In this document: piece after piece, positions 40,004 through 64,000 of the stretch
Layout of the letters: each line of letters opens with the position of its first letter
How positions within the stretch are numbered: position 1 is the first letter of the stretch
Assembly: GCA_030265395.1 (NCBI GenBank)
Contig: JARFYF010000057.1
Location: forward strand, 20,452,973-20,516,972
DNA length: 64,000 bases
From: Rhina ancylostomus
Taxonomy: Eukaryota
Reading direction: 5' to 3'
Program-made: the position numbers and the translations under genes
Notes under the pieces: model-generated
What the model was told of the DNA's origin: nothing
Database searches by the model: none
The model's input: the letters and a program-made list of their open reading frames with translations, nothing else

Positions 40004-40211
40004 TCAACCTCCAAGGCCCCACCACCTCAATCTTGGTGCAGGAGCTCGTGTAGGCCCTCCTCTCTCAGGTGGGATAAAGTAGTGATCTAATCCCAGTTCA
40101 TACATGCAGTAGCAATTGTAGGCCAGCATCGCCAAGGTTGGGAAAAATGTCAACCCAAATCCAAATCCACGATAGGCGCTGCTCAATCCAGCCGTAATCC
40201 AATATAGCAGC
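40004..40211 (-). CDS. TMEM79-like last coding exon
   Basis: CAG|(R)LLYWITAGLSSAYRGFGFGLTFFPTLAMLAYNCYCMY...WWGLGG*, resembling TMEM79 [25 protein letters not shown]. Confidence 0.9.
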
Positions 40212-40934
40212 CTGCAAGAAATTGCATCAATTATAAGCTAAGTGATACAATCAGGATCTTCGACAAATCAGTTGACTGGTGTGTATGCATGTACATATCA
40301 GTGTATTTGTGTTTTGTTTTATTGAAAGGCCCAAAATGGTATCTCTTTTGCTCTCTAGATCTTGCCTGACCAACTGAGTGTTTCAAGCATTTCAACTTTT
40401 ACTTCAGACTTCCAGCATCCGTGATAATCTGCTTCTGAGTATGTCACTGTGCTTATGTCCATGTAGGTATGGACAGGAGTGTGTGCATCAGCATTTGTAT
40501 GTCAATCTGCACTTGCCTGAGAAAGCATTAAGTATATTCTGGAAATTGTTACTCTCTTTCATACAACTTGAATAAAACTGTAAGAATATAACTTGCTTTG
40601 TTCTGGTGGCAGGATAAGAGGGAACAAAAAGTAGTATTCAAAACCAAGGGACGAACAGAAAGTTATTTCCACCACTTGGTAAACTAGTAATTGTGTGATA
40701 TAATGTTATGAATGTATAAAAGAAAAGGGGGATGGGAAGATAGAGTACAATATCCAGAGCTTGTCAAATTCCTGTCAACTTATCCTCTGACAGCCCATAA
40801 GCTTTCTAGCATCTAACAAGACACAAATCAGGAGTGTTAAGGAATACTCAGCACCTGGCTGGATTGGTACAGATACTCACTAACCAGGACAAAGCAGTTC
40901 AATTGATCAGCACCCCAACCACCATCCTGAACCT

Positions 40935-41345
40935 TCAAGAACACAAGAATATAGGAACAGGAATGGGCCATGTGTCCTGCCTGCCATTCAATATATCCAT
41001 AGCTAATCTACGGTGGCCTCAACTCCTCTCCTGTACTATTTCCCCATAGCACTTAATCTTTCAAAAATTTATCTACTTCCACCTTAAGTACTTCTGATGA
41101 TCTAGCCTTCACAGCCCTAACAGGGCACAGAATTCCAGTGATTCACTCCCTTTGTGAAAAGAAATTTTTACACATCCCCATGTAAATGACCAGCCCCTTA
41201 TCTTGTGGCTATGTCCCCTCATACGAGACTCTCCCACTAGGAAAAAACATCTCAATGGCTACCCTGTCATGCTGCCAGGATCTAGTATGTCTTAATAAAT
41301 GCACCCCTCATTCTTCTAAACTCTAAAGAATGCAGACCCAAACTG
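40935..41345 (-). mobile_element. CR1-type LINE 3' fragment
   Basis: AAGAACACAAGAATATAGGAACAGGA tail and a reverse-strand CR1 C-terminal remnant. Confidence 0.7.
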
Positions 41346-42689
41346 TTTAAACCCCTCTTAATAAAATCTTCTGTGAGCAGAGTACCATGGTTGAACTGTT
41401 TGCCATCTACAATCTGCAGCAACTTAATGAGCCTTCTTCAATAACACCACCCACTCATGATATCTACAGCTAGAGGAATTAAGGGTAGCTGGTGCATGGA
41501 AGTACCGCCACCTCAGTTGTAGTTGGATGTTTAATGGCTGTTTCTTCTCACGGTTTGGTCAAAATCCTGCCACCACCTGCCTAACAGGACTGTGTGAGCA
41601 CCATAGCTGGTGGGATGCAGTGATTTTGGAAGGTAAGTTTGCTTTTCCTCAAATCATCACCTTCTCTGGGACAATTAGCGATGGGCAATAAATGGTGGTC
41701 ATTACAATGGCTTCTTCATACCTCAAATGAACAATAAAAGCAACACATAAAAGGGAAAGAGAAACATACATATAAGAAGAAAAATGTTTTAAAAATATGG
41801 AGAAATATGAGCCTGGAGTAGATATCTCTTGGCTGGGTACAATAGGTAAGCTAAATGGTATCTAGTTGTTGAGATTTCAAGGATTATTTAATTGAGAATG
41901 CACTACTGTAAATAATTCCTTCATGTTCCCTCGTTGATTTTTGTGTGTTTAAGAAGCTTAGTAATGTGTTGGATAAATGTCTGTGTTTATTTCAGATTCC
42001 TGTTAAATAGGTAGATGTGTGAGTTGTCCATTAACAGGTGTTATAGCATTTTGGTGCGTTATAAAGTTCCTATCAGCAGAATCCAAATGTTCCAGGTTCT
42101 TAGTAACAGCATGATGTGTAAATCTGAGATTTACAGCTTGGTCTAGGTAGATTTATCATAAGGCATTTATAAAATCTGCAAACATTTACAGCAGTTCTAG
42201 CAAAGTGATGCAGTAAAACTGAATCTATTTTGAAGCACAGGTATAATTAACACAAAGTGGTTCTATTACCACCAAGCAGATTAACCAATTCAGAGTAAGA
42301 AACTGCTTGGGGATAAAATTAAAACCTGATCCAACTATGGCCAATTCCAACCTGACTCGAGTTTGAGGAATTATATTTTTAATATACCCAACCCATCCCA
42401 CATTGGTCCCAAAGGACTTGGGTTAGGGAGCTAGGCTCTAAGCATTGACCTTCGGTGCATTTACTTACAAAGAGTTGTCTCACCTGATCTGATTGGAGCC
42501 CAAGGGCCTATAATTTTTTGGGAGGCCTGACCTAACCTGCATCTGATACATGGAGTCAGGTTTGATCAGGTCAAAGTCAGGTAGCCAGGCTCCAATTCAG
42601 AGAATGGATGGAATCACTGTTCCTAATCAGTCGAAAATGACCCTTCTTTATGTGTGGGCCAACAGGGAGAGGGTTGTTACACTATTTAT

Positions 42690-43450
42690 AGACTTAGAGA
42701 ATTGTTATGAAGCAGAAGAAAGCCAGTCAGACCATTGAATCCATATCAGTATCCAGAAACCCATTAGCCCCACAGACCTACTCTTTCCCTGAACTCTTAC
42801 AAGCTTTTTTCCTCAATCATCTGTACAATTAAAAACCCTGACTGATTCTGTTTCCACTTCATTCATAGGCAGCAGGTTCCAGATCATCACTAATTTCTAT
42901 GATTTTTTTCTCNNNNNNNNNNNNNNNNNNNNNNNNNNNNNNNNNNNNNNNNNNNNNNNNNNNNNNNNNNNNNNNNNNNNNNNNNNNNNNNNNNNNNNNN
43001 NNNNNNNNNNNNTTCTATGATTTTTTTCTCATATCCCCACTTGTATCTTCTGCTTTGACTTTTAAATCCTTTAAATCTATGCTCAATGACACTCCCTCCC
43101 TTATCCCTGGAAATAAAGGAGGATCTGCTCTACTAATTGGAATAGCTCCCCTCTAACTTATATTAAGCAGTCACAAACCTGTATATCTCTATGTGATCCT
43201 CTCTAAACCTTCTTTGATCCAAGTAAAATAACTCCAGCTTCTCCAGGCTAAACTCAGAGCTGAAATCCCTCATCCGTGGAACCATGTCTAGGACCTGTGA
43301 TCCTTCTTAAATTGTGGTAACCAGAACTGAATGCAATACTCCAGGTGTAGCCTAACGAGTGTTCTATACAGATTCAACATAACATTCCTGCTTTTGCATG
43401 CTGGGTCTAGAAATATGGAATCTAGAATCCCATATGCTTGATTAACTACC
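42690..43450 (-). mobile_element. Decayed CR1-type LINE fragment
   Basis: ACCAGAACTGAATGCAATACTCCAGGTGT (reverse reads HLEYCIQFW) plus 3' tail remnants. Confidence 0.7.
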
Positions 43451-43939
43451 CCCTCAACATGTTCCACGACTGCATATATCCTTTAGAGCACTGCTAATTA
43501 GTCTATATTTAGTTCTGCTTATTAGTCTATATTGTGTCTTTCCTTTTCTTTCTGCGCACTTCTCTTTCTCTGTCTCCTGTCTGCCTATCTATCGGCCAGT
43601 CCATGTCTTCTTGCAATCTATTACAATCCTCTTCACAATTCCAAATTTCATGTCATATTATTATGTAAGGTATCACAACAGAGGCCACTCACACAGATCC
43701 TATTGGATGGTGATAAGGTCTGGAAGACTAGCTAATACTACTTGCACAATTCCTTAATCCTGATGGTACTAGTCCTGCTACCCCAGTTGAACTTGACTCA
43801 ATGTAAAGGTAAGCCCTTGAGTAAATCTTTGTATGTGTGCTCACTCACACTGGATGGTCCATTGGGAGAATTCAGCCACCATTAGCCTTTGAGAAACTCA
43901 TAACGACACCAGCAATGCCTACTTCATATTGGTTATCAC

Positions 43940-44153
43940 CTTGCCACTGCAAAGAGCCCAGATAATATGGGAATGATCTTCAGGTGCTCCTGATGAAGGT
44001 AGGTTGCCATAACAGCCATGTTGATAAAGTAGATTATAAACTGTTCAATGGAATTGCCAACGTATCTCTGATGAATAAGAACAGCACGAACATTAGTGTC
44101 CAAGGGATCAATGGCAGTAGAGCAAAGCCGGGACAGAGAACCTATCACAACAC
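43940..44153 (-). CDS. TMEM79-like middle coding exon (MAPEG-like core)
   Basis: TTTCCAG|(G)VVIGSLSRLCSTAIDPLDTNVRAVLIHQRYVGNSIEQFIIYFINMAVMATYLHQEHLKIIPILSGLFAVA(R)|GTGAT; 214 nt, phases compatible with both neighbouring exons. Confidence 0.9.
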
Positions 44154-62827: not shown

Positions 62828-63737
62828 CGAGTAAGACCGGAGTGATTGCAATTATGTTGCAGCGCAGTGTATATGTCATTCGGCTAGTTAGGTCTGGACA
62901 GGGTGGGGGATCAAAGGGCACAAACAGGTAAAGACCATAGAGGATCCATGGTATAAACAGCAGAGCGACAAAGACAGACGATATGGCTTTAAGATGTGAA
63001 GTAGAGCAGTATTGGCAGCAGGGACAGCATTTCTGGCCTCCACTTGCCCCAGTGGCTGTCTCCTTTTGCGATGATTCTGCAGAGGCATTGCGCTCCGAAT
63101 CACTGGAAATCAGTTCAATGGTCTCGGCATCCGGCGATGGGCCCAGCAATGGCTGGTCTTCTGAAGCCTGGCTGGTGAACTTGTGTGCCTTCTCCAGCAC
63201 TGCAGTGTTCTCTACCCCTACCTTGGTATTGAAGTTCTGTGGGGGAATGGTTCCAGCTTCACCTGGCAATGATGGCTCAGAAAAAGACACTTTTTCATTG
63301 GGCAAGGTTGAAGTTTCTCTGGTGATGTCCACCGACACATTGTCTGGATGCTTGTGTTTATTTTCAGTGTATGGAAAGGTGTGGTTTCTCACTAGTTCCG
63401 CTTTAATCATGTTCAAACGCCCATCACTCAGTGCGGTCTGCTGTTTTGTGATCTTCTGGTGGGCTTCATTGAACTGAAGTCTCTTGGCTTTTGGAGCTGG
63501 TTCAGTTATGTAATCGATGTTTTCATCAGATAGTGAATGCAGTTCTTCCACAGATGATTCTGGGCTATCAGAGATGGGTGCCAATGTAATCTGGGTGTCT
63601 AGGTCCAAGAACGGAGAGAAGGAGAGGCGGCTGGGGTCAATGTCCTGCAGCTGGTTAATGATGTCAGTGATTGACTCCTTTACACTGTCAAATTCCTTCA
63701 GTTCATGACTATTGGCTGGTTGTCTTGGAGTAGTCAT
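62828..63737 (-). CDS. TMEM79-like first coding exon (long acidic N-terminus, Cys cluster, first TM)
   Basis: 910 nt from ATG to GTAAG donor: KCCPCCQYC...LKAISSVFVALLFIPWILYGLYLFVPFDPP...SRMTYTLRC. An acceptor at 63754-63755 implies an upstream non-coding exon outside the window. Confidence 0.88.
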
Positions 63738-64000
63738 TGTTCAGAGCTAACCTCTGGAAAGATACAGAAGTTAGGAGTGACATGTGAAAAAAATACTTAT
63801 TTCTATTTAGTTGTAAATACACATGACTACATTACAGATCAGTTAACTTTTCATTCACACTTTGTACAGGTTGCTGGGTAGGACATCAGTTAATGCCCTT
63901 CCCTATGTCAGCGACTTGCTTGGCCATTTCAGGGGCCTGAGTCGCACCACACATTGACTTTTTAAAGTCCAGGTTCATTTAATTTCTTAATTTTAAATTC

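What the first reader, a model, noticed from the sequence alone, without database searches (positions are those of the whole stretch)
40004..44153. TMEM79-like paralog retains the full MAPEG glutathione-binding signature: candidate undescribed membrane GSH enzyme
Seen: the spliced 443-aa protein has R312 (GSLSR), R333-x3-N337-x2-E340 (RYVGNSIE, 44044-44067), R375-x2-Y378 and R389 exactly 14 residues after R375. Established: MAPEG enzymes bind GSH with this pattern (LTC4S R51/N55/E58, R90/Y93, catalytic R104 = R90+14; mPGES-1 R38, R70/N74/E77, R110, R126), and TMEM79 is MAPEG-related. From memory, human TMEM79 reads YGLSLL and RYVAQSVQ at these positions, lacking the TM1 Arg, the Asn and the Glu. 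Inference: this paralog kept the ancestral active site and may be a GSH transferase, peroxidase or eicosanoid-type synthase with a long N-terminal extension, while mammalian TMEM79 may be a degenerate form.
Basis: partly seen in the sequence, partly recalled or inferred. Interest (0 to 1): 0.8.

Follow-up and report, generated by a model that had tools for sequence, protein, structure and literature searches.

The report
Shark TMEM79 paralog keeps glutathione site
This cartilaginous-fish gene is an uncharacterised sister of the skin-disease gene TMEM79 that keeps seven of eight glutathione-site residues of MAPEG membrane enzymes, four of which human TMEM79 has replaced, so it is likely, though untested, a glutathione-dependent enzyme and a direct way to test whether human TMEM79 is a dead one.

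Summary
The gene is real: three coding exons on the minus strand (63737-62828, 44153-43940, 40211-40004) give 443 aa, and contigs of two related organisms join these exons. It is a second vertebrate TMEM79 paralog; the same genome holds the true TMEM79 elsewhere. An HMM alignment to MGST2 maps R312, R333, N337, E340, R375, Y378 and R389 onto R30, R51, N55, E58, R90, Y93 and catalytic R104. An ortholog's model has the MAPEG fold and a predicted homotrimer. Two corrections: the signature is not full (Tyr97 is Ala382), and it is not a property of the paralog as a whole. All 14 cartilaginous-fish sequences keep it, but 0 of 22 bony-vertebrate orthologs keep all six Arg/Asn/Glu positions. It is ancestral: short invertebrate and bacterial TMEM79-like proteins keep it, Tyr included. 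Best reading (0.5): a glutathione transferase/peroxidase of unknown substrate. Main rival: a slowly evolving adaptor with a relic site. No activity is shown here or, in the papers I could read, for any TMEM79. The scan's earlier notes held nothing on TMEM79.

The parts
62828..63753 (-). First coding exon: acceptor at 63753, ATG at 63737, residues 1-303 (N-terminal region, extra helix TM0, start of MAPEG helix 1)
   Evidence: contigs of runs X1 and X2 match to 63753/63755 and continue into exon 2 letters
63528..63698 (-). Strongly conserved N-terminal motif (about residues 14-70), diagnostic of this paralog from lamprey to lizards; predicted helix 15-31; no family match
   Evidence: no Pfam or Atlas hit
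63006..63029 (-). Cys cluster C237-C244 just before TM0; possible palmitoylation site (inference)
   Evidence: sequence; conserved in orthologs
62922..63002 (-). Extra predicted membrane helix TM0 (about residues 246-272) ahead of the four MAPEG helices
   Evidence: helix 245-271 in the ortholog's model; hydropathy peak at 255
43940..44153 (-). Second coding exon: R312, R333, N337, E340 and two bases of R375
   Evidence: joined to exon 3 in contigs of runs X1 and X2
44128..44130 (-). R312 = MGST2 Arg30 (helix 1)
44044..44067 (-). R333-x3-N337-x2-E340 = MGST2 Arg51/Asn55/Glu58 (helix 2)
40004..40211 (-). Last coding exon: Y378 (= Tyr93), A382 (in place of Tyr97), R389 (= catalytic Arg104), C-terminal RLRWWG motif, stop
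40190..40192 (-). A382, the one missing ligand of eight (Tyr in 46 of 46 outgroup proteins)
40169..40171 (-). R389, predicted thiolate-stabilising arginine
   Evidence: role in MGST2 and MGST1 from PMC7979937 and PMC5554250

Best explanation
The gene encodes the cartilaginous-fish member of a second vertebrate TMEM79 paralog, predicted to be a five-helix MAPEG homotrimer that likely still binds glutathione and acts as a glutathione transferase or peroxidase on an unknown lipophilic substrate. Shown: gene structure, paralogy, and seven of eight ligand residues in register with MGST2. Predicted: fold and trimer (on a 92% identical ortholog). Inferred by homology: R312 of one subunit and R333/N337/E340/Y378 of the next hold glutathione at the subunit interface, and R389 stabilises the thiolate, which attacks an electrophile or hydroperoxide entering between helices 1 and 4. 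Loss of Tyr97 probably weakens or reshapes binding. The extra helix would put the long N-terminus on the cytosolic side, where its conserved motif likely binds a partner; that second role would be what bony vertebrates kept after the site decayed.
For: HMM alignment to MGST2 (6ssr, E 0.0023 and 0.0013) puts all seven residues in register. The four best VIA matches are all MAPEG: mPGES-1 4bpm Z 12.2 (rmsd 5.5, 142 aligned), MGST2 Z 11.6 (3.1, 128), FLAP Z 9.7, MGST1 Z 9.0; the top Foldseek rows are LTC4S/MGST2, at E about 0.02. Trimer score 0.78 against best control 0.00, runs agreeing in at least 80% of contacts, pLDDT 75-77; the mark was reached by 21 of 30 solved homodimers and 0 of 23 monomers (eukaryotes 17 of 29 and 0 of 30), and a pass may come from likeness to solved MAPEG trimers. 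14 of 14 cartilaginous-fish sequences, chimaera included, keep the seven residues. Ancestral residues are better kept at ligand sites (0.88) than elsewhere (0.70) in this group only; bony orthologs 0.52 vs 0.56, TMEM79 0.55 vs 0.52. Equivalents of R333, N337, E340 and R389 matter for activity: MGST2 R51A/K and R104A/K near or fully inactive, E58A down 93% (PMC7979937); MGST1 N78T and R130A undetectable, E81Q 0.51 vs 6.4 (PMC5554250).
Against: Tyr97 and the preceding Gly are replaced (T381-A382), though Tyr is in 46 of 46 outgroup proteins and in 4 of 4 canonical MAPEG exons of this genome that cover the position; MGST2 Y97F keeps 26% activity and I saw no Ala mutant. 0 of 22 bony-vertebrate orthologs keep all six Arg/Asn/Glu positions, so the paralog's shared function does not need them. 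Sharks and rays evolve slowly here: 97 of 141 domain columns are invariant, as are 28 of 52 columns that vary in bony orthologs, so keeping R312, R333 and N337 passively has odds of roughly 0.54 cubed, about 1 in 6. Lungfish keeps 18 of 25 outgroup-conserved columns against 17 for the window. PMC10359276 states that there is no direct evidence of glutathione conjugation by TMEM79. No model with glutathione could be built.
Confidence: 0.5

Rival explanations
1. Non-catalytic membrane adaptor with a relic site. The protein works like mammalian TMEM79 or FLAP, binding other membrane proteins, and keeps the old ligands only because cartilaginous fishes evolve slowly or because the polar residues stabilise the trimer.
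For: Site decayed in 22 of 22 bony orthologs, 33 of 33 TMEM79-clade sequences and lamprey. The N-terminal motif is better conserved across the paralog than the site. Tyr97 is already gone. TMEM79 acts through USP8/Frizzled (PMC7521923 section 8) and TRPV3 (PMC10359276). FLAP is a trimeric MAPEG without activity (PMC5554250). E340 and R389 equivalents lie in the predicted subunit interface.
Against: FLAP lacks the catalytic Arg, which is kept here. Of 19 outgroup-consensus columns lost in bony orthologs, the 6 kept in all cartilaginous fishes include R312, R333 and N337, against 3 of 14 non-ligand columns. A relative's contig changes the N337 codon silently (44053).
Confidence: 0.33
2. Glutathione-binding but non-turnover protein: glutathione is a structural or regulatory ligand that tunes the trimer or its partner binding.
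For: Most ligands kept but the Tyr97/Gly96 motif lost; fits both an intact pocket and an adaptor role.
Against: No direct evidence; the catalytic Arg is kept at the MGST2 spacing.
Confidence: 0.12
3. Dedicated eicosanoid synthase (LTC4- or PGE2-forming).
For: R+3 Tyr and R+14 Arg spacing are those of MGST2; nearest folds are LTC4S, MGST2 and mPGES-1.
Against: Only 12-19% identity to these structures; the closest kin with the intact site include bacteria and invertebrates; the genome has separate canonical MAPEG exons.
Confidence: 0.05

Closest known systems
TMEM79/mattrin (human; P0198)
   Same: Long N-terminus, Cys cluster, five-helix layout, C-terminal R-x-R-x-W-G; 29% identity overall; keeps the R333, R375, Y378 and R389 equivalents (R282, R324, Y327, R338).
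   Different: Separate clade. Human has L261, Q286, Q289, F331 in place of R, N, E and the Tyr97 position, and lacks the paralog's N-terminal motif. The true ortholog in this genome is on contig C73 beside NCU-G1/GLMP exons and reads Q, R, D, H at 312/333/337/340.
MGST2 (PDB 6ssr) and LTC4 synthase (2uuh), MAPEG family PF01124
   Same: Four-helix fold, predicted trimer, R30/R51/N55/E58/R90/Y93/R104 in register with identical spacing in helices 2-4.
   Different: No Tyr97 or Gln53; an extra helix and about 245 extra N-terminal residues; 13-19% identity; no activity shown.
Short TMEM79-like MAPEG proteins of invertebrates and bacteria (Saccoglossus XP_006824639.1, Glandiceps, Branchiostoma, Asterias, Parvibaculaceae)
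   Same: Same family by profile (E 1e-17 or better); R312 46 of 46, N337 44, E340 42, R375 46, R389 45.
   Different: Mostly 170-245 aa, keep the Gly-Tyr of helix 3, mostly Phe at 378; 24 of 46 carry all six Arg/Asn/Glu positions (31 with Lys allowed at 333). I found no paper on their activity.
FLAP (ALOX5AP)
   Same: MAPEG fold (Z 9.7, rmsd 4.6, 131 aligned); precedent for a non-catalytic member.
   Different: FLAP lacks the helix-4 arginine (PMC5554250); this protein keeps it.

Membership tests
MAPEG (PF01124) | Profile match above the curated cut-off | tested here: met
   Orthologs P0001, P0002, P0013 score 28.1-29.8 bits against 23.4. The window's single exons give no hit; its joined protein was not scanned.
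MAPEG (PF01124) | Four-helix membrane fold | tested here: met
   Model of P0002, pLDDT mostly above 90 over the helices; top four VIA rows are MAPEG, Z 9.0-12.2, against 8.1 for the next. Such Z values alone are not decisive for helical bundles; the sequence match agrees.
MAPEG (PF01124) | Homotrimer | tested here: met
   Predicted only: 0.78 vs best control 0.00; may reflect likeness to solved trimers.
Catalytic MAPEG enzymes | Helix-4 thiolate-stabilising Arg (R104/R126/R130) | tested here: met
   R389 aligns with MGST2 R104.
Catalytic MAPEG enzymes | Helix-2 R-x3-N-x2-E and helix-1 Arg | tested here: met
   R333/N337/E340 and R312 align with R51/N55/E58 and R30.
Catalytic MAPEG enzymes | Helix-3 R-x2-[YH]-x3-Y | tested here: not met
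   R375 and Y378 present; the last Tyr is Ala382 in 14 of 14 cartilaginous-fish sequences.
Catalytic MAPEG enzymes | Glutathione binding and turnover | not testable with these tools
   Needs assay; glutathione is not an offered ligand for modelling.
TMEM79 orthologs (mattrin) | Groups with human TMEM79 | tested here: not met
   Window lies in an 18-row clade (98/91) apart from the 20-row clade holding human TMEM79 (100/99); a second locus of the genome lies beside NCU-G1/GLMP exons (the human TMEM79-GLMP neighbourhood is recalled).
TMEM79 orthologs (mattrin) | USP8/Frizzled or TRPV3 regulation | not testable with these tools
   Described for TMEM79 in PMC7521923 and PMC10359276.

The most novel reading that the evidence does not exclude
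The TMEM79 family is a further, catalytically active MAPEG branch running from bacteria through invertebrates; in vertebrates it duplicated, and the glutathione site survives only in this shark and ray paralog, having decayed separately in lamprey, in TMEM79 proper and in the bony-vertebrate paralog. Human TMEM79 is then a pseudoenzyme, and its redox phenotypes are indirect or rest on residual ligand binding.
Probability: 0.42. Interest if true: 0.72.

Novelty: new variant of a known kind. Interest (0 to 1): 0.52.

Why it matters
Whether TMEM79, an atopic-dermatitis gene, is a glutathione transferase has been proposed but, by PMC10359276, never shown. This comparison makes the question testable: human TMEM79 has Gln at both the Asn and the Glu whose mutation cripples MGST1 (N78T undetectable, E81Q about 8%), while the shark paralog and the short invertebrate and bacterial relatives keep them. 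Assaying these side by side would show whether the family is an enzyme family, what its substrate is, and whether mammals kept only a pseudoenzyme. It also flags an unstudied vertebrate paralog with its own conserved N-terminal motif.

Tried and rejected
Single-sequence and 20-row profile searches of PDB sequences found no MAPEG; only deeper profiles reached MGST2, and none reached LTC4S or mPGES-1 by sequence, so the mapping rests on MGST2. Foldseek gave no match at E 0.001 or better. Five alternative splice combinations were open and were rejected because orthologs and spliced contigs match the 443-aa form. No RNA holder was listed on record; runs X1 and X2 are only guessed to be RNA, so tissue and level are unknown. 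The Atlas gave no hit for the N-terminal motif, which shows neither novelty nor absence. Emrick et al. 2018 (PNAS), the main paper proposing transferase activity, is not held; I saw only other papers' statements on it, and the MAPEG alignments in figures of PMC3834151 and PMC7521923 cannot be seen, so the loss of these residues in mammals may already be visible in print. No mammal or bird copy of the paralog appeared among named hits, but most hits are unnamed, so absence is not shown. Rejected: pseudogene or artefact (open frame, orthologs, mostly silent differences in relatives); direct TMEM79 ortholog.

Full report
Gene model. The finding's span holds two minus-strand exons; a third, large coding exon lies about 19 kb upstream. 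Of six open GT/AG combinations, 63737-62828 + 44153-43940 + 40211-40004 gives 443 aa and matches annotated orthologs end to end. One contig in each of two runs from related organisms (X1, X2; RNA status only guessed) runs through all three exons without introns, skipping 3728 bases between exons 2 and 3. The closest named protein tested is from Mobula (92% identity), so the window is from a cartilaginous fish, probably a ray (inference). Databases already call such proteins 'TMEM79-like' or 'uncharacterized', with a precomputed MAPEG domain.

Residues. A profile of 94 family members matches human MGST2 (6ssr, E 0.0023), and a 46-row profile made mostly of short relatives does too (E 0.0013). 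Allowing for a six-residue offset in the chain, which I fixed from the residue names in PMC7979937, the alignment gives R312=R30, R333=R51, N337=N55, E340=E58, R375=R90, Y378=Y93, R389=R104. It also shows two gaps in the signature: A382 stands for Tyr97 and V335 for Gln53. PMC3931076 (passages) names R30, Q53, R51, N55, E58, Y59, Y93 and R104 as LTC4S glutathione contacts. PMC7979937 (passages) reports for MGST2: R104A/K inactive, R51A/K near inactive, E58A down 93%, Y97F 26% left. PMC5554250 (passages and Table 1) reports for MGST1: N78T and R130A undetectable, E81Q 0.51 and R38A 5.5 against 6.4 for wild type. So the residues that matter most are present, the helix-1 Arg is dispensable in one member, and the lost Tyr contributes.

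Structure. The Mobula ortholog was modelled with the 94-row alignment: low-confidence N-terminus, a short helix 15-31, then helices 245-271, 282-314, 324-354, 362-383 and 385-413. The best four VIA matches are mPGES-1 (4bpm, identified from memory of the entry), MGST2, FLAP and MGST1 (Z 12.2, 11.6, 9.7, 9.0). Foldseek ranks LTC4S and MGST2 on top but only at E about 0.02. Three copies of residues 245-425 scored 0.78 against 0.00 for the best of three controls, with agreeing runs and pLDDT 75-77; the alignment was not used, the calibration held two copies only, and the pass may reflect likeness to solved MAPEG trimers. The interface includes the equivalents of N337, E340 and R389.

Distribution. 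Of 176 sequences, 166 hit the domain and 119 covered it; 47 partial ones were dropped. I grouped 115 of the 119 (lamprey P0039 and three aberrant rows left out; some unnamed rows were placed by similarity). A 51-row tree splits vertebrates into this paralog (18 rows, 98/91) and TMEM79 proper (20 rows, 100/99); the lamprey row is unresolved, though it carries the paralog's N-terminal motif. Cartilaginous fishes: 14 of 14 keep the seven residues and have Ala382. Bony-vertebrate orthologs (lungfish, coelacanth, sturgeon, teleosts, newt, turtles, lizards): R312 6 of 22, R333 3, N337 1, E340 16, R375 22, R389 21, all six 0. TMEM79 clade: N337 0 of 33, E340 0 of 33. Mammal set (119 of the 317 hits): Asn 0, Glu 0, helix-1 Arg 1; human L261, R282, Q286, Q289, R324, Y327, F331, R338. 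The genome's own TMEM79 on C73 reads Q, R, D, H and lies near NCU-G1/GLMP exons. Outgroup of 46 short proteins, of which the named ones are from amphioxus, acorn worms, starfish and Parvibaculaceae bacteria: R312 46, R333 27 (Lys 7), N337 44, E340 42, R375 46, Tyr382 46, R389 45. One of them, Saccoglossus XP_006824639.1, is the sequence used as a TMEM79 homologue in PMC7521923. The site is therefore ancestral, and among the vertebrate sequences seen it persists only in this lineage of this paralog.

Is the retention meaningful? For: ancestral residues are kept at 0.88 of ligand sites against 0.70 of others in cartilaginous fishes, a gap absent in the other two groups; of 19 outgroup-consensus columns lost in bony orthologs, R312, R333 and N337 are among the 6 kept in all 14. 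Against: 97 of 141 domain columns are invariant in this slow group, as are 28 of 52 columns that vary in bony orthologs, so three passive survivals have odds near 1 in 6; the Gly-Tyr of helix 3 was lost; and lungfish keeps as many ancestral columns overall (18 against 17 of 25). The evidence is suggestive, not decisive.

Mechanism. Most likely (0.5) a trimeric glutathione transferase or peroxidase working as MGST2 does, with R389 stabilising the thiolate; every step beyond sequence and fold is inferred. The main rival (0.33) is an adaptor with a relic site, as TMEM79 acts through USP8/Frizzled (PMC7521923, section 8 read) and FLAP has no activity. The paralog's most conserved feature across vertebrates is its N-terminal motif, which favours a shared non-catalytic role, with catalysis at most an extra kept in sharks and rays.

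Literature. TMEM79's MAPEG likeness is known (PMC3834151, passages; PMC13732302, passages). PMC10359276 (passages) says the proposed transferase activity has no direct evidence. Searches for TMEM79 with MAPEG (4 papers), with glutathione transferase (2) and for tmem79a/b or TMEM79-like (2 listings on other subjects, not read) showed no paper on this paralog or on the intact site in invertebrates; the library lacks most subscription papers, Emrick et al. 2018 was not available, and figures and supplements were not seen. Earlier notes of this scan had nothing on TMEM79.

Verdict. Real and correctly mapped, but overstated as 'full' and as a trait of the paralog. A new variant of a known kind; interest 0.52, mainly because it makes the TMEM79 enzyme question directly testable.

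Noticed in passing
window about 9420-31130, + strand: Multi-exon proprotein convertase gene (Peptidase_S8 and P-domain exons; Cys-rich and membrane C-terminus), tail to tail with the TMEM79 paralog; which PCSK it is was not resolved.
   Followed up: partly
window 63528-63698, - strand: N-terminal motif nearly invariant from sharks to teleosts, turtles and lizards and recognisable in lamprey, absent from TMEM79 proper; no Pfam or Atlas match.
   Followed up: partly
window 40007-40036, - strand: C-terminal R-x-R-x-W-G motif shared by the window, lamprey, shark TMEM79 and human TMEM79 but missing from most bony-vertebrate copies of this paralog.
   Followed up: no
window 63753 and upstream: Contigs of relatives continue 5' of 63753 with letters not on the laid stretch, and an in-frame TGA lies two codons before the ATG: an upstream non-coding exon is likely and was not located.
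   Followed up: no
L002 / L005 (G000:C73, about 7007900-7011530) and L008: The genome's TMEM79 proper, with NCU-G1/GLMP exons about 20 kb downstream on the other strand.
   Followed up: partly
L014 (G000:C68) and L015 (G000:C56): Two separate, similar MAPEG exons that look like PTGES (label recalled from motifs); one may be a duplicate or partial copy.
   Followed up: no
L009:7172-7435, + strand: Cadherin-like exon about 7 kb beyond the window's end (weak Pfam hit, E 0.056).
   Followed up: no
P0115 cluster and other short hits: Bacterial (Parvibaculaceae) MAPEG proteins fall among invertebrate TMEM79-like proteins; the tree does not resolve direction or transfer.
   Followed up: no
P0053, P0055, P0057, P0060: Four TMEM79-clade proteins replace even the helix-3 Arg by Gln; unnamed, lineage not determined.
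   Followed up: no
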